Assembly (NCBI RefSeq): GCF_009914755.1
Contig: NC_060936.1
Direction: 5' to 3' (one strand)
Length of the DNA stretch: 64,000 nucleotides
Origin: the human T2T-CHM13v2.0 reference genome, Homo sapiens
Numbering within the stretch: the first letter of the stretch is position 1; each line of letters opens with the position of its first letter. Both the position numbers and the translations under genes were made by a program. Positions 9,036 to 54,109 of the stretch are shown piece after piece. Below the pieces are notes generated by a model, which saw nothing but the letters and a program-made list of their open reading frames with translations, did not search any database and was not told where the DNA came from.

Positions 9036-44795
<35,760 letters not shown>

Positions 44796-45661
44796 CTACA
44801 CTGGCCCGAGTCACTGTGCGGGGGAGGGGGGAGAAACACAGAACAGTCAGTGACGCGCACTGTCCCCCTCCCCCACACCCACCCGCTCTTTCCGCCCCCC
44901 ACCCCAGCCACCCTAGCAGGGCACCCGAACCGCTCAGGCTGAACTTAGTTCCACACTCCTCGGGGGCAGCCCGGAAGCCGGCTCCCCGGCAGGCGCCCCC
45001 ACGGAGCGAGGGAGCGACGCCTCCGAGGGCAGGCTGGTGCAAGCGCGGGGAGGGGAGACGCGGGGCTGGACCGAGCGGGGTGTGACGGGGGAGGGGGTCC
45101 GAGTGGCAGCGGCGCGGGGGGGCCAGGGGAGGCCGCAGGCGGCGAGGCGCTCGGGGACACAAGGTCACTTGGGGGTGGGGGGGCGCCTCCCTGCGCCCGG
45201 GGAGGGGCCAGTCCCCAGACAGGGCAGCTCTCCAAAGGCTGTCCTCTGGGACAACTCAGGTTCTCCTCAAGAGCTGCGGGGACGAGGGGGCGTGGAGGCT
45301 CGGGCGCTGCGGGGGGCCGGAGGCAGGGACGCGGGGGGCGAAAGCGTCCCACCGGGAAGGGGGCCGGGCCACGTGTCCCGGGGGGCAAGTGATCAAAGGG
45401 CGAGGGGGTGGGCGCCGGGCATTGTGGGAGACCAAGCCGGAGGCGGGGGGTCGCGGGGAGCAAGACTCCGGCAGGGTTAGGGCGGGGGCTGGGGAGGAGG
45501 CCGGGCGCCCTGCAGGGCCAGGAAAGGAAGGGTCGGCTCCTCTGGGCAAGGGGCGGTCCGCGGGTCCGGAGACGCCTGAGGAAGGGGCGGGTGACGGGAT
45601 GACCCTCGGGGCTGGTAGGGCCGTGAGGGGCGTCTCTTTGGGAACCCCGCGCTCTCCTCAC

Positions 45662-45745
45662 CCCGGAGCCGCCGCAGGTCGCGCTGGGTCCGGCTCGGTG
45701 TCACTCCCGCTCCGGCTCCTCCTCGCCGCGGCCGAAGGGGGGAAA
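45662..45745 (-). other. CHD4: CHD4 non-coding exon 1 (TSS approximate); exon 2 begins at 44813
   Basis: GTGAG donor at 45657-45661; YY1-like GCCATTTT at 45743-45750 with TTTAAG about 25-30 bp upstream; exon 2 acceptor ACAG ends at 44814. Confidence 0.75.
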
Positions 45746-45955
45746 ATGGCTCCGGCTCCAGCGTCGCCTCTTAAAGGGCCTGAAACACCGGCCGGGAAAT
45801 CCCACCGCACAGGCCCCGCCCCCCCACGGACAGCCCATAATAACCTCAACCAACTCCAACCCCCCCCTTCCACTACCGCCACCCTCCTCCCCAGGTCTCC
45901 CGGGCAACCCCCGCCCCCTCGTCGCTCAGGCAACCACTGGCCACGCCCCCTTCGA

Positions 45956-45972
45956 GCGCGCGCGCGCGCGCG
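45956..45972. repeat. (GC)8 alternating tract
   Basis: gcgcgcgcgcgcgcgcg seen directly. Confidence 0.9.
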
Positions 45973-46030
45973 TCACCTGGGCAACCGCCCACCTCCTGGC
46001 CATCCCATAATACACACGGACACCCCCCCC

Positions 46031-46031
<1 letters not shown>

Positions 46032-46071
<40 letters not shown>

Positions 46072-46082
46072 CACACACACAC
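46032..46082. repeat. (CA)n microsatellite
   Basis: Seen directly, with one interruption. Confidence 0.95.
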
Positions 46083-47993
46083 CCTGCCCCCCCACATTTC
46101 ATACACATATGCCAGAGACTGCTGACATCTCAAAATATTGCAGACCTTTTGCAACTAACCCTCTTAGACATCCCATAATAGACATCCTTTGCCAACTTCT
46201 TCTTCACTCTTGGACCTAATGCTAACATCCCATAATAATTCATCACCCCTCCCTCCCCATGGCCATCCCATAATAAGCACCCCTCGCAGCACTTATGCCT
46301 CATATCCCATAATATTCAGCCCCATCCCCCACAGACATCCCATAATAACCATCCTTCATCCACCCCCAGTTTGATATCCCATAATAGTCAGAAACTCACC
46401 CCCCCCCATACTACAACAACGGACACTCGGCCTCCTCCCACACACATCCCGTAATAATCAGTCTCCCACTTTCTATACTGACATCCCATAATAACTAACC
46501 CCCTAGAGCTGCCCTCAGTCCCTGCAGGCCAGGGTCTAGAGGCTCACATCACCCCCAGCCTTCCCTCTTCTAGCTCCACAGCCTATAGTAAGTACCCCTC
46601 CTCTATCAAAAAGATAACCCATAATGATCAACAGCCCTACTGTCGCCCCACAGATGGACATCTAATCTCTTTTCCTCTAACACTGGAAAGCTATCCCATA
46701 ATAATTTTACTCTCCTACCCACATCCTGACATCCCATAATAATTGCAAGGAGCCCGTGGTCAACCAAACATACCATAATACTCCCAACACAACCCAGTGT
46801 CACATCCCATAATGCTTCATCTCCACTCTACCACCCCTATACCCTTCGAGCCAGGCATCCCATAATATTCATATTCTTCCCACCCCCATCTCCAGGCGCT
46901 GTCAGTCTATTCTAACACCCAGAGCAGGGAGGGCCAGGCAGGCTACCCACGCTTCCTTGTCCCCGCCCCCACTTGCACACACCTTAATCCCTTTCTGGGC
47001 CAAAGTAGTATCCTGGCAAAAAGCCTCCTGATGTCTGGGACCCCAGCTTCCCTCATACCATCATTTCCAGACACTCGGGGGCTGGGAGCCCACCTAGGGC
47101 CCCACCCAGTCCCACCAAAATCTAGGTATTTTCCAGATGCTTACCTCCAGCTCCTAAGTTTTGAGGAACACCAACCAACCAAAATACCAAGCTGACAGAT
47201 GAAACATTTACATGAAGTCTAATTCACCCTACAGCATCCCATAATAATTACCAACTCCCATCCAAAGACTATCTCTCAACATTCTAGCAATCCTCCCCCT
47301 CACCACATCCCCAGGTCAGGGATCTTTCACCAACACCCCCAGGCCATTCCTGGGGATGGACATCCCATCACGATGTGAACTCAGGTTCCTGCTCTATACA
47401 CACCAAGAGTGAAGGCCTGCCCTCCCGCTACTCACCACTACTCATGTTCATTCAACCTGTGTTGACAGAGTACCTAGCAAGGCCGAGCTCCGCACCATGG
47501 AGAATCAAGGAAGACCAGGGGGCCTCCCTTCAAAAAGCATAAGCAACCAAGCAAACTATGATACACGACAGAATGGTGCCAAGGGAGAACTGCTGAGCAC
47601 TGTTTCCCAATTTCCTGTTACAGAAAATAAAATCCCACTGGTTCCAAGAGAGAACATATCCCAATAAGATTTATCGTGGTCCTTCTAGAGGCTGGAAGAT
47701 GATACTTAAAGGATTTATGGGTATAGACCATAGTCAACATGATCTCCTATCTGTTCCCTACTTACTAGGGGATTTTTCTTGGAAAGCAATGTTCATCCAT
47801 CCAGCATTCCTAATACTGAAATCCTATAATATGTTCATGTCCTTCCTTCTTAAGAGACTCCACAATATACCAGCATTGTTTCCCTCATTCTTGAACACCA
47901 AATCCTGCTTATCCTCAATGTCCCATATTTTTCAGGCACTTTCCCATTTTATATCCTGAAGTCTCATAGTATCTCCAATGGCCTCCATCCTCA

Positions 47994-48149
<156 letters not shown>

Positions 48150-48755
48150 TCACAAGGTCAGGAGTTCAAGACCAGCCTGGCCAAAATGGTGAAACCCCGT
48201 CTCTACTAAACATACAAAAATTAGCCTGACATGGTGGCACGTGCCTGTAATCCTAGCTACTCAAGGGCTGAGGCAGGAGAATTGCTTGAACCCAGGAGGT
48301 AGAGGTTGCAGGGAGCTGAGATTGCACCACTGCACTACAGCCTGGGCAACAGAGCAAGACTCTGCCTCAGAAAAAAAAAAAAAAAAAAAGAAGTCAGCAG
48401 TCCAGGAAACCTTCTACATTGAATTATGCCCCAAGGTAGCCCTCCAGCGTATACCATCTCCTTCCCTTATTATGCATACCCTCCAGCCACCCTATGGACC
48501 CAATCCTAGAAGCTGAAATAACCGAATTTTTTTTGTTTTGTTTTTTGTTTTTTTGAGAGACAGGGTCTCAGTGGCGCAATCACAGCTCACTGCAACCTCA
48601 ACCTCCTGGGCTCAAGTGATCATCCCACCTCAGCCTCCCACCTGTAGCTGGAACCACGGGCATACACCACCACACCCAGCTAATTTTTAAATTTATTGTA
48701 GAGACGGGGTTTCACTATGTTGCCAGGCTGATCTTGAACTTCTGGACTCAAGTGA

Positions 48756-48964
<209 letters not shown>

Positions 48965-50883
48965 TAGTAGAGACGGGGTTTCTCCATATTGGTCAGGCTG
49001 GTCTCGAACGCCCAAACTCAGGTGATCCGCCCGCCTCGGCCTCCCAAAGTGCTGGGATTACAGGCGTGAGCCACTGCGCCTGGCCAGGAAAGAGCCCAAT
49101 CTTAAAACCCTTTGGCCCTCAGAAAACCTAACCCATCAGCCTGTCACTTTTCCCTTTTCCTGACTCCCAGAGATTCAGGACCTGAGTGAAAACCAATGTC
49201 CCAGCACCACTGCCTTGCTGCCCTAACCCCAGGCCAAGGATAATGTCTCCCTCTGCTCATGTACCTTTTTTGCATGGGTCCAAGACCTATGGAAGTGGGA
49301 CGAGTTGAAAAGAAACTTGGACTTCCTTGTAGAAAGGGCCCTTTACTAACCAGTAGTGAGTGGGATGAACCTCATGCCATCTCTGCATTACCCTTCTCAT
49401 CTCATTTTCCTAGAGGAAGGCCTGGCCAGATGGCTCTCCCCTTCTCTAGGATCCAAGGGACTGGAGAACTGGTACAAAGAAATGAGTTCAGGGAAGGCAA
49501 GAGCTTGCCTCAGGGAATTACAATCCCCCTGCTCCTGAGCAGAGCACCAGGGATGCAGACAAGTCTTCCGCTAGCTCCTGGCTGACTCTGTAGACCCACT
49601 AGCATTCCACATTTAACTCTCCTCATCTTAGGACTGGAGTTTTTGGCATCAAAGACATCAGGTCCTGTCAAAAGCTCCCTGTCACCTTTGAAGTAGGTGT
49701 TTTCTTTTTCCAACCTTCCCTTCAGCTCCCTGGCCCACCCTCTTGCTGCACTCATTGTGGCAAGCGGGCCATTCTCCCCCGTTCTGCAAGGCTTCCAGTT
49801 TCCCTCGTTAAATGCTCTCGACATCAAGACTGGGCCCCATTTACTTACCCAAGCCCTCTCCCATACTTACTCTGAGTACTAAGAATGAAACTTGTGTTCC
49901 ACAATGGGGGGTGAGGAGGCAGCTCTTTTCAGATACCATGATGTGGGGACACCTCCTTTCAGGGAAGTTTCTCCTTCCTACAGAGGGCTGCCAGATGCCT
50001 ATTGTGCGCTCTTCTACCCTCATTTCTCCAGGGGATCCAGCCTGTCTCTGGGCCTCAAATTCCCTTCTGCAATATCTCCATCTGCCCATACCCATACTCT
50101 CATTTCCACAGTGATCTGTCCATATAAACCAGTAAGAGAGCGTTTGGGTAGTCACAGCCTCCTGCCTGTGACTAAAAATATCCACATTTTATTTATCCAT
50201 ATATCCTTTGTCCACTACTCACCCTGTGTCCCTATTCCTGTAGGTTCTACCCACTTCTTCCTTTGCTGCTCTTGCTCCCCACCTCTCCCTAACACCACAA
50301 CAAGGAGAAAGTTAAAATCCCTTCCTCTCTTCTTGAGTTCCAGAAAGGGCTCGGAGGTGTGTGCTGGTGTGTTGCTTTGTAGTCCTTATGCTTCTACGCT
50401 TCCCCTCCCTCCTCTAGCCCCGTGCTACCCTCCCAGATAAATTATAAATAAACCACTAGCATGACTGGCCCAGGGAGACTAAGGGTGGCATAATCTCCTA
50501 ATTAATGCACCCAGGAGGGCAGCCTCTCTAGCCAGTTACCTTAGAGTTCTGTTTTCATCCCATGGTACAGAAGAACCTAGAACAACACTCAGAGTGGGTT
50601 GTTCATGGAGTTTTTAGCATTTGCTCTATAATTCCTCTCCTTACACCTCTGTTTTGTGTGAACCTGAAAAACTCTGTTCATAAGAGGTCCAAGGGGCCAC
50701 AGTGTTCTCCTGCTCTGTCTGAAAAGGGGATTTTGGGAGACAACGAGGGAAGCAAAGCCACAGTGACAGTGCACTCCAAAGGCTAGACAGGATGCAGATC
50801 ACGTGGGGCTTGGGGGTGACATGCCAGGTGTTTGTATCTCAGGAGGCAACCTACTATCTGTTTTTTGGGTGTGACTGCAAGGT

Positions 50884-50985
50884 AGCAAAGCGCTCCGTGC
50901 ACAACCCCCCAACCTAAGCAAAGTGCTCCGTGCACAACCCCCCAACCTAAGCAAAGTGCTCCGTGCACAATCCCCCAACCTGAGC
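50884..50985. repeat. 33-bp minisatellite, 3 copies (AGCAAAGTGCTCCGTGCACAACCCCCCAACCTA)
   Basis: Units start at 50884, 50917 and 50950, with 1-2 mismatches each relative to the middle unit. Confidence 0.95.
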
Positions 50986-51402
50986 TATGGTCCCCAGGCT
51001 CAAACCCAGGAAGACAAAGATGGAAGGGAGACGGGTACTATCGCCATCCATGACTACTACTCCCTTTGGTATGCCACCCGGCCAGAACATCTCAGTTCTC
51101 ATTTGCAGTGCAGCTCTGCAGGCCCCGGACTCACAGGGCAACCCTGTAGCGCACAAGCTGTTTAAAGGACCCAGGTGTCCAGGGTTCAGATTTGGCTCGC
51201 TGGAGCCTGCCCCAGGGGCCCCTTCAAACAGCTGTCACCAAAGAAACCTCTCCAGCCAGTTACTCCTGCCAGGCCTCAGGTCCGACTCCAGGGCTCACCC
51301 TACCCTCCCCAGCTCCTTCCCTCCCTCTTCCTTCCCTCCCCCTCCCCACCCCTCCCTAGAGTTTCACCTCTCCTGGACAGCCCCACCCAGCTGTGCAGGG
51401 CA

Positions 51403-52420
51403 CATCCCATAATAATCCTCCTCGCTAGCCTTACCCCCCCAAAAAAAGAGAGGCGGCCATCCCATAATAGCCACCCACAAGAGACATTCCGCGGTGACCG
51501 CCCCCTCCCTGCAGAGCTGCTGGGAGCAGCCATCCCATAATAGCTGGCCGCCTGTTTTACTGGTTACGGCTGTGGAGGGAGCTGGAGAGGAAATGGAGGG
51601 GAGGGGGGAGGGGAGAAAGATCCAGGGCCCCCACTTTGTGGGATGCAGGGAGAAGGGGAAGGACGGTGGTATAAGGGGCTAGGGTGCAGAGGAGGCCGTC
51701 GTGCAGGTGGAAGGTGTGATCCACTGGCCACCACCACCCTGCTTTAGGGCTTTCTCCCCATTCGCCAGGGGCTACTTTTCTCCTCAGCACCCCGGAGGTG
51801 GCTGCTAGTTAGGGGAGAAGCCCGGGATGGGTTGAGGTGCCCAAAGTCTGTGTGTGTAGGGAGATGGGTTTCAGGTGTTCCTCTTGGGGAGTCTGAGAGA
51901 GGACGGTGACCTTAGAAAGGATGGTAGGCGAGTAAGGGTTGAGGAGGTGGGGGGGCTGGAGAAGAGCTCCTCAGGCCCTCCCCATTCTGCACCACCATCC
52001 CATAATAATCCCCCCAGCCCCACTCCCCCTCCCACACACGACATCCCATAATATCTTCTGGAGAAGCAGTCCCCGCAGTAGGTACAAAGAGCTATCCCAT
52101 AATAAGCTCCCCCACCCCCACTCACCACCCCCCCCAACTTGGCCCCCCCTCAGTCACATGCAGCCGGTGCCATCCCCCGCTGCTCCCCCCTCTGGCCACC
52201 GAAGGCCTTGCCAGCCCATAATACTCTTGCCTCTGGTCGCAGGAGGCCTCCAGCCCATAATACTCCCTTCCACCACCACCCCCCCTTCCCGCCCCGCACC
52301 CCTTCCTCCCGCCTCCAGTTGGAGCCGGGCCTCACCAACCCATAATATTCCCCAGTCTCCTAAGGCTGTTCCAGCCCATAATACTCTCCCTGTCTCCTAA
52401 GGCCTCTCCATCCCATAATA
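51403..52420 (+). promoter_or_regulatory. Distal (about -6 kb) CHD4 enhancer: cluster of 11 CCCATAATA (ZNF410-type) motifs
   Basis: Copies start at 51403, 51458, 51531, 51996, 52042, 52093, 52212, 52251, 52336, 52372, 52409; same orientation as the proximal cluster. Confidence 0.92.
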
Positions 52421-52999
52421 CTGCCAGACGCCTGACCTGTGGGCCAAACCCCAGCCAGTTCCACACATCGAGGCTGTGTCAGCGCCGCAGGCCTCCCTCC
52501 CTGTCCCTCCTCCCTCCCTGGTCGGCGCTTTCCCTCCCAGGCTTTCTCCCGCCCTCCTGCCCTGGGCCCCTCTCCCAGCCCCACCCCGTGCCTGCCTGGG
52601 CCCTCGCTTCCCCTCCAGCCTCCTCCCTTGCCCTTTCTCCATTGCTTGGTTCTCCAGCCAGCTTCCCCCTGTCTTGCACTTTCCTACCTCCTCCTTGGTC
52701 TGTGGGATGGACATGGGCCTAGTGGGGAGAGAGTGCCCCCAGAGGGCAACAGGCCAGTCGCTGCCCCTAAAGACTGCCTGCTTGACCTAGCACCGTGGAA
52801 ACCTGCCCAGCCTGCCTTGCTCACCACCTCCCGTGGTCCTACGTCTGATTGCTGGCAGAGCTCTGTCTGGGTGAGGAAAGAGCCCTTCAGGTCTTCGGGA
52901 AACACTCCCCTTGGGCATCACTGGCAGAGTTGATCAATGGCCTCGCCTCCCCATGCTCTTGTTGGAAAGAAGGAGCTCCCACTTATGGGGCATCTAGAG

Positions 53000-53180
53000 T
53001 ACCTTTCAAAGGTGGGCTCCTTGACCCTCACAATAACCCAATAAGTGGATATTATGAGCCCCATTTCACAGAGAAATGGGAGAAAACAGAGGCTCAGAGA
53101 GGTCAAGAAATTTGTTGAAGCCACATTGCCAAGAAGTGAGAGAGTTGAAATTAATGCCCAGATTTGTTTGATTCCAAAGT
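53000..53180 (-). mobile_element. MIR fragment
   Basis: ccccatttcacaga...gaaaacagaggctcagagaggtcaag MIR core. Confidence 0.7.
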
Positions 53181-53447
53181 TCTGGAGCCTTTGGGATTCC
53201 CCAAACCCTGAGTGAGAAAGTTCACCTTCCAGGACTTTCCGTGCTCCTCTGGCAAGGACAACATGGTGAGAATTACCCCAACTTGTCCAGGGCCTTCCTG
53301 TGTGAGATTAACCTTCCGTTCCCCGTTTCTTCCATGGGACTCCAGGTGGCAGCCTCGAGGGAATTCCATCTTCAGGATGGTTGAGGACCAAGAAGGAAGA
53401 ATCTCTGCCCTCCTTTGATATCCCTTACCTCTGCCCTGGCTCTCCTA

Positions 53448-53777
<330 letters not shown>

Positions 53778-53875
53778 TTAAGGCCAGGAGCGGTGGCTCA
53801 TGCCTGTAATCCCAGCATTTTGGGAGGCCGAGGTGGGCGGATCATGAGGTCAGGAGACGGAGACCATCCTGGCTA

Positions 53876-54109
<234 letters not shown>

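What the first reader, a model, noticed from the sequence alone, without database searches (positions are those of the whole stretch)
45831..46867. Promoter array of 16 co-oriented CATCCCATAATA motifs: a one-factor/one-gene control element
Seen: the 12-mer recurs 16 times in about 1 kb with non-identical spacers and no reverse copies, and I found it nowhere else in the window apart from the outlier and the distal array. Established (from memory): this is the ZNF410 motif, and two such clusters make CHD4 the near-exclusive ZNF410 target, controlling NuRD dose and fetal haemoglobin silencing. It is the standout system in the window, but it has been described.
Basis: partly seen in the sequence, partly recalled or inferred. 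Interest (0 to 1): 0.85.

Follow-up and report, generated by a model that had tools for sequence, protein, structure and literature searches.

The report
Known ZNF410 site array at CHD4
This is the already published cluster of ZNF410 binding sites just upstream of the CHD4 gene, which lets one transcription factor control essentially one gene and so helps keep fetal haemoglobin switched off.

Summary
No copy lies on the - strand. One more site is at 47235 and 11 are at 51403-52420, giving 27 of 27 sites at up to one mismatch on one strand.

In T2T-CHM13 there are 423 exact 12-mers, and all 10 pairs lying within 300 nt of each other are at this locus. Only the shorter 9-mer core has a rival in density, a chr22 minisatellite.

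Consensus, counts (15 or 16, plus 11), position (promoter and -6 kb) and the published deletion guides, which bracket all 27 sites, identify it as the ZNF410 motif clusters of Lan et al., Vinjamur et al. and Xu et al. Occupancy, deletion, HbF read-out, co-orientation and conservation are all in print.

Small additions here:
- a preferred 33-39 bp pitch;
- spacers with no sequence homology but extreme C-over-G strand bias;
- a local 36-37 bp tandem duplication under the distal "switch" motifs.

Verdict: observation confirmed, interpretation supported, already known, low interest.

The parts
45831..46867 (+). Proximal ZNF410 motif array, -90 to -1126 from the CHD4 TSS. It holds 8 exact 12-mers, 7 one-mismatch variants and 1 three-mismatch variant, all on the + strand, i.e. 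antisense to CHD4.
   Evidence: TSS from the hub's annotation (exon 1 45662-45741, - strand)
45831..46012 (+). Two TSS-nearest sites (45831 CAGCCCATAATA, 46001 exact), 170 bp apart, in the CpG-rich part. By my inference they lie outside the five published ChIP peaks.
   Evidence: inference from the counts (22 motifs in 5 peaks, 5 outside)
46169..46493 (+). Dense sub-array of 8 sites (46169, 46226, 46264, 46303, 46336, 46375, 46445, 46482) with gaps of 57, 38, 39, 33, 39, 70 and 37 bp. Probably the published 'peak1' (inference).
   Evidence: peaks 1-2 are proximal
46615..46626 (+). Weak site TAACCCATAATG, the likely 16th motif. Its three deviations each occur singly in other array members, and the two central adenines (12-mer positions 9-10) are intact.
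   Evidence: tolerance of the last-position A-to-G change in EMSA is reported
46692..46867 (+). Sub-array of 5 sites (46692, 46730, 46769, 46803, 46856) with gaps of 38, 39, 34 and 53 bp. Probably the published 'peak2' (inference).
47235..47246 (+).
51403..51542 (+). Distal array, first sub-array: 3 exact sites (51403, 51458, 51531).
51996..52104 (+). Distal array, second sub-array: 3 sites (51996, 52042, 52093).
52212..52262 (+). Two CAGCCCATAATA sites 39 bp apart. TRF reports 52189-52265 as period 39, 1.9 copies, 84% matches.
52336..52420 (+). Three sites at a 36-37 bp pitch (52336, 52372, 52409). These are the three 3' 'switch motifs' of published peak5. TRF calls 52328-52422 a 37-bp repeat (2.6 copies, 79% matches). 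Units 52336 and 52372 share the spacer 12-mer GTCTCCTAAGGC; unit 52409 shares only the box and the sequence upstream of it.
   Evidence: the 200-bp nucleosome fragment printed starts at the core at 52254 and covers these three sites (compared by eye)
45662..45741 (-). CHD4 exon 1; TSS at 45741, the gene controlled by the arrays.
   Evidence: hub annotation; published dependence of CHD4 on the arrays
45791..45810 (-). Target of the published CHD4-proximal guide, the left edge of the 6.7/6.9 kb deletions.
   Evidence: guide sequence
52469..52714 (+). Targets of the two published distal guides (52469-52488 and 52695-52714), the right edges of the 6.7 and 6.9 kb deletions.
   Evidence: guide sequences
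45956..46082 (.). Two microsatellites inside the proximal array, between sites 46001 and 46169: (GC)8.5 at 45956-45972 and (AC)26 at 46032-46082.

Best explanation
The interval is the proximal ('promoter' or 'proximal enhancer') homotypic cluster of binding sites for the five-finger protein ZNF410. Its partner is the distal array at 51403-52420, the '-6 kb enhancer'.

Shown in print:
- Each box is read by ZF5 to ZF1 along a 15-bp element.
- ZNF410 occupies essentially only these two clusters in the genome.
- It keeps them accessible and H3K27-acetylated.
- The two arrays add up to supply about 57-60% of CHD4 transcription (proximal about 32%, distal about 20%).
- The resulting CHD4/NuRD dose silences the gamma-globin genes.

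Shown here:
- the sites, their strict common polarity and their extended consensus;
- their genome-wide uniqueness as a cluster;
- their exact match to the published guides and counts.

Inferred: specificity comes from site multiplicity plus cooperation in chromatin, since single sites elsewhere are mostly unbound. The preferred 33-39 bp head-to-tail pitch is the geometry in which neighbouring ZNF410 molecules help one another to keep nucleosomes off.
For: Sequence:
- 15 exact 12-mers in the window against 0.00 expected.
- 27 of 27 sites at up to 1 mismatch lie on the + strand, binomial p 1.5e-8.
- The two central adenines (12-mer positions 9-10), which Xu et al. report as essential, are present in 27 of 27 sites. 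Flanks extend the consensus to about 17 bp, g-M-[12-mer]-a-T-Y. This agrees with the 15-bp crystal element, whose numbering is the 12-mer position plus 1.

Genome (T2T-CHM13):
- 423 exact 12-mers, 15 of them in 6.6 kb here, about 16,800-fold enrichment.
- 10 of 10 co-oriented exact pairs within 300 nt are here, and there are no convergent or divergent pairs anywhere.
- 15 of 34 pairs of the contact-defined 10-mer ATCCCATAAT are here; no other locus has more than 3 copies.

Identity with the published element:
- The guides map at 45791-45810, 52469-52488 and 52695-52714.
- Counts of 15 or 16 plus 11 match.

Published function (passages or sections read):
- ChIP-seq and CUT&RUN occupancy with knockout controls, mouse conservation, and CHD4 rescue.
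- Deletion lowers CHD4 by 56-79% and induces gamma-globin.
- Accessibility is lost on ZNF410 knockout; the enhancers act additively; single-site edits are ineffective.
- Relative orientation of the boxes matters, and the 3' motif helps binding at the others in cells.
Against: - Nothing here tests occupancy or function; all of that rests on papers.
- I read preprints and one NAR paper. The journal versions (PMC8180380, PMC8556680) are not held, and I saw no figures or supplements.
- Half of the proximal copies are variants, not the exact 12-mer.
- Clustering is not sufficient: a six-motif cluster in GALNT18 intron 1 is unbound and closed.
- The 9-mer core alone reaches 11 copies in about 525 bp in a chr22 minisatellite.
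- Cooperativity was not seen on naked DNA, and ZNF410 did not bind nucleosomal sites in vitro, so how the sites cooperate is unresolved.
- About 40% of CHD4 expression is independent of ZNF410.
- Sole-target status has been shown only in erythroid and K562 cells.
Confidence: 0.95

Rival explanations
1. The array is only a decayed minisatellite: a roughly 38-bp unit amplified by slippage, with the recurring 12-mer as its best-preserved part and no function of its own.
For: - 11 of 24 neighbour gaps are 33-39 bp against 1.8 expected, a figure reached in none of 20,000 random placements.
- All copies are head-to-tail.
- At the distal 3' end TRF finds true 39-bp and 37-bp repeats, with a shared spacer 12-mer.
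- A real 45-bp minisatellite carrying the 9-mer core exists on chr22.
Against: - Proximal spacers show no homology beyond composition, and TRF finds no unit there. Yet the box is kept at 8-12 of 12 positions in 16 copies, which is the signature of selection on the box and not of recent amplification.
- Published occupancy, deletion and point-mutation effects and mammalian conservation exist.
- An origin by duplication is compatible with the best explanation; 'no function' is not.
Confidence: 0.02
2. The boxes are bound mainly by a factor other than ZNF410, for instance a homeodomain-type protein reading the ATAAT part, and ZNF410 is incidental.
For: The 3' half of the box is A/T-rich and resembles many homeodomain half-sites (my own knowledge, not tested). 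ZNF410 is not a pioneer in vitro, and the authors themselves invoke unknown co-factors.
Against: - All 12 positions, not only the A/T half, are conserved across 27 sites.
- The 12-mer was derived de novo from ZNF410 ChIP peaks with knockout controls and matches SELEX.
- The crystal structure shows base contacts across 10 bp.
- ZNF410 knockout closes the chromatin and phenocopies the deletion.
Confidence: 0.02
3. The motif acts at the RNA level. Because all copies are on the + strand, an upstream antisense or enhancer RNA would carry repeated CAUCCCAUAAUA elements for an RNA-binding protein.
For: - There is strict strand polarity, and the spacers show extreme strand asymmetry (C 0.44, G 0.12).
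- The annotated + strand lncRNA LOC105369631 starts at 52790, 370 bp beyond the distal array (hub annotation).
- Putative eRNAs are reported from the region.
Against: - Inverting whole peak5 in a reporter changes nothing, whereas flipping boxes relative to one another abolishes activity and ZNF410 binding. So polarity matters between boxes on DNA, not relative to transcription.
- No Rfam family matches in 44000-54000.
- No annotated transcript covers the proximal array on the + strand (hub annotation).
Confidence: 0.02

Closest known systems
ZNF410 homotypic motif clusters at CHD4 (Lan et al. 2020/2021; Vinjamur et al. 2020/2021; Xu et al. 2024 preprint)
   Same: It is the same locus and the same element. 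The consensus, the counts (15 or 16, plus 11), the positions (promoter-proximal and -6 kb), the common orientation and the deletion guides all coincide.
   Different: Nothing essential differs. The assembly here is T2T-CHM13, with 423 exact genome-wide 12-mers against the 434 reported.
ZFP64 motif cluster at the MLL/KMT2A promoter (cited by both 2020 preprints)
   Same: A multi-finger protein is concentrated on one chromatin-regulator gene through a dense homotypic site cluster near its promoter (passages).
   Different: ZFP64 has thousands of further ChIP peaks and some additional targets. It involves a different protein, motif and gene. Not examined here.
GALNT18 intron 1 cluster of six ZNF410 PWM matches (Vinjamur et al.)
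   Same: It is the only other 3-kb genomic window with more than two PWM matches.
   Different: It is neither occupied nor accessible in erythroid cells. No chr11 locus appears among the co-oriented triples of the exact 9-mer core within 300 nt, so its sites are more degenerate, more widely spaced or mixed in orientation.
chr22 45-bp minisatellite (G000:C22:50114554-50115078, locus L031)
   Same: 11 co-oriented copies of the core CCCATAATA in about 525 bp at a 37-45 bp pitch, a density like that of the CHD4 proximal array.
   Different: It is a true tandem repeat (15.5 copies, 86% matches). Every copy reads ACACCCATAATA, i.e. 3 mismatches to the 12-mer. It lacks the A at 12-mer position 2, which is invariant in 27 of 27 CHD4 sites and is contacted by ZF5. 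It was not reported as a peak in the passages read.

Membership tests
ZNF410 motif cluster of CHD4 (proximal array) | Sites match the ZNF410 consensus (12-mer from ChIP/SELEX; 15-bp crystal element) | tested here: met
   8 exact and 7 one-mismatch sites in 45831-46867. The logo extends to the flanks as in the 15-bp element. Consensus taken.
ZNF410 motif cluster of CHD4 (proximal array) | Lies directly upstream of the CHD4 TSS, with a second cluster about 6 kb upstream | tested here: met
   The arrays lie at -90 to -1126 and at -5662 to -6679 from the TSS at 45741 (hub annotation). The published deletion guides bracket them.
ZNF410 motif cluster of CHD4 (proximal array) | 15-16 motifs proximal and 11 distal (26-27 in all) | tested here: met
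   15 + 1 (47235) + 11 = 27 at up to 1 mismatch, plus the weak site at 46615.
ZNF410 motif cluster of CHD4 (proximal array) | Cluster density without counterpart elsewhere in the genome | tested here: met
   Exact 12-mer pairs within 300 nt: 10 of 10 are here. For the 10-mer ATCCCATAAT, no other locus has more than 3 copies. Qualification: for the bare 9-mer core a chr22 minisatellite has 11 copies.
ZNF410 motif cluster of CHD4 (proximal array) | All boxes in the same orientation | tested here: met
   27 (+) and 0 (-). Noted in print.
ZNF410 motif cluster of CHD4 (proximal array) | Occupied by ZNF410 in cells | not testable with these tools
   Published ChIP-seq and CUT&RUN with knockout and IgG controls (passages; section 6).
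ZNF410 motif cluster of CHD4 (proximal array) | CHD4 expression and gamma-globin silencing depend on it | not testable with these tools
   Published deletions lower CHD4 by 56-79% for both arrays. Separately the figures are -32% proximal, -20% distal and -57% both.
ZNF410 motif cluster of CHD4 (proximal array) | Conserved in mammals | not testable with these tools
   No vertebrate genomes other than this one are held. Published: phastCons and mouse ChIP, human/mouse/pig/dog patterns, boxes upstream of CHD4 orthologues across vertebrates.
Minisatellite / tandem repeat | Head-to-tail units that are homologous over their whole length | tested here: not met
   There is no TRF row in 46100-46900 even at minimum score 30. 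Flank identity equals that of shuffles, and the unit alignment is conserved only over the box. The feature is met only locally, at 52189-52265 and 52328-52422.

The most novel reading that the evidence does not exclude
The two arrays are the eroded remains of an ancient minisatellite of about 37-39 bp, whose unit was one ZNF410 box plus a C-rich spacer. Selection has since kept four things while spacer sequence drifted freely:
- the box;
- its polarity;
- the 33-39 bp pitch;
- the C-over-G strand bias.

Pitch, polarity and the stiff C/G tracts, rather than any second sequence motif, would then be what lets a non-pioneer factor cooperate head-to-tail and keep the arrays nucleosome-free. The 36-37 bp duplication under the distal 'switch' motifs would be the least eroded piece of that repeat.
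Probability: 0.3. Interest if true: 0.35.

Novelty: already known. Interest (0 to 1): 0.15.

Why it matters
The element matters biologically. [quoted passage not shown]

As a scan finding it adds nothing new. The motif, counts, uniqueness, orientation, conservation, occupancy, deletions and point mutants are all published. The value of this check is that a tool-less reader recognised a real, functionally validated element at exact coordinates.

It also adds a few descriptive details for anyone modelling why clustering works:
- a quantised pitch;
- spacer strand bias without spacer homology;
- a local tandem duplication under the switch motifs;
- a chr22 look-alike for the core.

Tried and rejected
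- **Composite-element idea.** I asked whether each ZNF410 box is paired with a CACCC/KLF-like or C-tract motif. CACCC, a KLF-like 8-mer (recalled from memory, not from a tool), CCCCNCCCC and C runs of 5 or more are all confined to the + strand. None of the three motifs is commoner than in dinucleotide-preserving shuffles of the arrays: 10 vs 9.8, 2 vs 1.6, 2 vs 1.1 proximal; 4 vs 3.6, 1 vs 1.1, 1 vs 2.6 distal. Only C runs of 5 or more in the proximal array are modestly high (24 vs 14.9; 12 of 300 shuffles reach it). Rejected: the signal is composition skew, not a second motif.
- **General spacer homology across all 27 units.** Not found (alignment).
- **G-quadruplex potential on the - strand.** One candidate in the proximal array (45882-45918) and six in 51300-52600, out of 13 in the window. 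Suggestive for the distal part only; not pursued.
- **Rfam over 44000-54000.** 0 matches.
- **Pair patterns with gaps up to 1000 nt.** Repeated with 300 nt, so pairs 301-1000 nt apart elsewhere in the genome were not counted.
- **Journal versions of the two founding papers.** Not held.
- **Library searches for 'ZNF410' with 'tandem repeat' (5 papers) and 'tandem duplication' (1 paper).** By title and abstract, none concerns the origin of the CHD4 arrays. In the Xu 2024 text, 'duplication', 'spacing', 'C-rich', 'GC content', 'KLF' and 'SP1' occur 0 times.
- **Mixed-orientation triples of the 9-mer core.** Not searched.
Full report
**Observation**

The + strand of 45831-46867 carries the exact 12-mer CATCCCATAATA 8 times and its 9-mer core CCCATAATA 12 times. 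At up to one mismatch there are 15 sites.

It has three mismatches, each of which occurs singly in another member of the arrays. The 2-mismatch hit at 46126 is a 12-mer that also occurs at 24757 and 60775, so it is probably chance.

Elsewhere in the 64-kb window the motif occurs only at 47235 and at 11 sites in 51403-52420. At up to one mismatch the tally is 27 on the + strand and 0 on the - strand. If the sites were independent, that would have a two-sided binomial probability of 1.5e-8. Shuffles of the window give 0.00 exact copies against 15 observed. 'The 12-mer recurs 16 times' should read '8 exact copies and 8 variants'.

T2T-CHM13 holds 423 exact 12-mers, 224 forward and 199 reverse; the reversed-sequence control gives 166. 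Fifteen of them lie in the 6.6 kb spanning the two arrays, about 16,800 times the genomic rate.

- **Exact 12-mer pairs within 300 nt.** There are 10 co-oriented pairs and all 10 are at this locus. No convergent or divergent pair exists anywhere.
- **Contact-defined 10-mer ATCCCATAAT.** 15 of 34 co-oriented pairs are here, and no other locus chains more than three copies.
- **Bare 9-mer core.** 20 of 128 co-oriented pairs are here (100 of the 128 were listed, and all chr12 rows were among them). So are 17 of 35 triples.

The core has one true rival in density. Nine triples fall at C22:50114554-50115078, a 45-bp minisatellite (15.5 copies, 86% matches) with 11 co-oriented cores in about 525 bp. 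Every copy there reads ACACCCATAATA, three mismatches from the 12-mer. It lacks the A at 12-mer position 2, which is invariant in 27 of 27 CHD4 sites and which ZF5 contacts in the crystal structure.

Pairs more than 300 nt apart and mixed-orientation triples of the core were not searched.

**Anatomy**

- **Consensus.** Aligning the 27 sites extends the consensus by two positions on the 5' side (G 15/27, then A or C 25/27) and three on the 3' side (A 12/27, T 17/27, C or T 26/27). This fits the 15-bp element of the crystal structure, whose numbering is the 12-mer position plus one. The two central adenines, reported as indispensable for binding (abstract; passage), are present in 27 of 27 sites.
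- **Spacing.** It is not random. 11 of 24 neighbour gaps are 33-39 bp against 1.8 expected, a count reached in none of 20,000 random placements, and no gap is shorter than 33 bp.
- **Spacers.** They are not homologous. In-register identity of the 21 nt beyond the footprint equals that of shuffled flanks (z -0.8 downstream, -0.1 upstream). TRF finds no unit in 46100-46900, and an alignment of 12 proximal units is conserved only over the box.
- **Exception at the distal 3' end.** TRF reports 52189-52265 (period 39, 84% matches) and 52328-52422 (period 37, 2.6 copies, 79% matches). Units 52336 and 52372 share a 12-nt spacer word, and the sequences upstream of boxes 52372 and 52409 are 15 of 21 identical.
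- **Composition.** The spacers do share composition. With the 17-bp footprints masked, the proximal array is C 0.44 and G 0.12. It has 20 runs of four or more C and none of G. The twelve most negative 1-kb GC-skew windows of the 631 in the window all start in 45501-46601 (minimum -0.58; window mean -0.078, sd 0.116). The distal sub-array 51996-52440 behaves alike (skew -0.53; 14 C runs, 0 G runs).
- **No second motif.** No specific second motif explains this (see Tried and rejected).

**Identity with the published element**

Lan et al. (2020 preprint, passages) derived the 12-mer CATCCCATAATA from ZNF410 ChIP-seq peaks. They counted 15 and 11 motifs under the CHD4 promoter and enhancer peaks and 434 perfect instances genome-wide, and found no comparable cluster elsewhere.

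Vinjamur et al. (2020 preprint, passages) counted 16 and 11 motifs (27 in all) using the JASPAR matrix in 3-kb windows. They deleted both clusters with guides whose sequences they print. Those guides map uniquely to 45791-45810 (- strand), 52469-52488 and 52695-52714. That is 21 bp left of the first box and 49 bp and 275 bp right of the last, giving the published 6.7 and 6.9 kb.

The 200-bp fragment that Xu et al. used for nucleosome reconstitution of 'peak5' begins at the core at 52254 and covers boxes 52336, 52372 and 52409 (compared by eye). Their 'switch motifs' are therefore the three boxes at the 36-37 bp pitch described above.

Their statement that five peaks hold 22 motifs, each peak at least three, with five motifs outside the peaks, fits the sub-arrays found here: 8 + 5 + 3 + 3 + 3, with 45831, 46001, 47235, 52212 and 52251 outside. 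This assignment is my inference, because the figures were not visible.

**Mechanism**

Shown in print:
- The five fingers read the major groove with ZF5 on the 5' triplet and ZF1 on the 3' triplet, with base-specific contacts over 10 bp and a Kd of 22 nM for the finger domain.
- ZNF410 occupancy in human and mouse erythroid cells is essentially confined to the two CHD4 clusters. CHD4 is the only bound gene that responds, and CHD4 re-expression rescues the phenotype.
- ZNF410 knockout nearly closes both arrays but not the core promoter.
- Deleting the proximal array lowers CHD4 by about 32%, the distal by about 20%, and both by about 57%. Editing a single box does little.
- Flipping boxes relative to each other abolishes reporter activity and binding, whereas inverting the whole fragment does not. 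The 3'-most box of peak5 promotes binding at the other two in cells, but not on naked DNA. ZNF410 does not bind nucleosomal boxes in vitro.
- The full-length protein binds DNA less tightly than the isolated finger domain, which the authors attribute to a DNA-mimicking N-terminal domain (title and abstract).

Inferred: because single high-affinity sites are mostly unoccupied, multiplicity and chromatin-level cooperation create the specificity. The 33-39 bp head-to-tail pitch and the stiff C/G-tract spacers found here may be part of that geometry. This last step is untested.

**Rivals**

- **A functionless decayed minisatellite.** It explains pitch and polarity. It does not explain the preservation of the box against freely diverged spacers, nor the published perturbation data.
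- **A different binding protein.** This is contradicted by knockout-controlled ChIP, the crystal structure and the knockout phenotype.
- **An RNA-level role.** The strand bias and the + strand lncRNA starting at 52790 suggest it. It is contradicted by the whole-fragment inversion result and has no Rfam support.

**Comparison and novelty**

The element is not merely like the ZNF410 clusters of CHD4; it is them. Every sequence-level defining feature was tested and met. Occupancy, function and conservation could not be tested with these tools and rest on the papers.

Common orientation has been in print since 2023 (Kaur et al., NAR, passage) and was tested experimentally in 2024. Motif distances and their human-mouse similarity are also reported. 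A 2026 methods paper uses the locus as its benchmark.

I did not find the following points in the texts searched:
- the statistical preference for a 33-39 bp pitch;
- the absence of spacer homology together with extreme strand bias;
- the tandem-duplicate nature of the distal 3' units;
- the chr22 core look-alike.

These are descriptive footnotes, and supplements and figures that I could not see may already contain some of them.

**Verdict**

The element is already known, and interest as a new finding is low.

Noticed in passing
L031 (G000:C22:50113500-50116500); array at C22:50114554-50115078, - strand: A 45-bp minisatellite (15.5 copies, 86% matches) carries 11 co-oriented ACACCCATAATA units. 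It is the only locus outside CHD4 with a comparable density of the ZNF410 9-mer core, but it lacks the 5' part of the box. It was not mentioned as a ZNF410 peak in the passages read.
   Followed up: partly
window 45956-45972 and 46032-46082: A (GC)8.5 tract and an (AC)26 microsatellite sit inside the proximal array, between boxes 46001 and 46169. Both are likely length-polymorphic and would change the box-to-box distance there.
   Followed up: no
window 50884-50985: A 33-bp tandem repeat (3.1 copies, 95% matches) lies between the two arrays. It has no ZNF410 box.
   Followed up: no
window 51546-51990: The 445-bp gap between the distal sub-arrays has the opposite strand bias (GC skew +0.34; 9 runs of four or more G against 4 of C), flanked by strongly C-biased box-bearing stretches.
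   Followed up: no
window 52790 (hub annotation): The predicted + strand lncRNA LOC105369631 starts 370 bp beyond the last distal box, on the same strand as the boxes. This fits the enhancer-RNA output reported for the region.
   Followed up: no
many loci, e.g. L013, L016, L017, L020: About 22 of the 100 listed genome-wide core pairs are one dispersed 32-nt element with two CCCATAATA cores 23 nt apart. It recurs on many chromosomes (chr2, 3, 4, 7, 9, 11, 12, 13, 14) and is presumably part of an interspersed repeat family.
   Followed up: no
G000:C23:577251-577759 and C24:592525-592844: A tandem repeat near the starts of contigs 23 and 24 (presumably X and Y) carries up to three copies of the 10-mer ATCCCATAAT, interleaved with ATCCCACAAT variants.
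   Followed up: no
window 45770-45776, - strand: A TATA-like CTTTAAG lies 29-35 bp upstream of the annotated CHD4 TSS on the sense strand, between the TSS and the first ZNF410 box (read; interpretation is mine).
   Followed up: no
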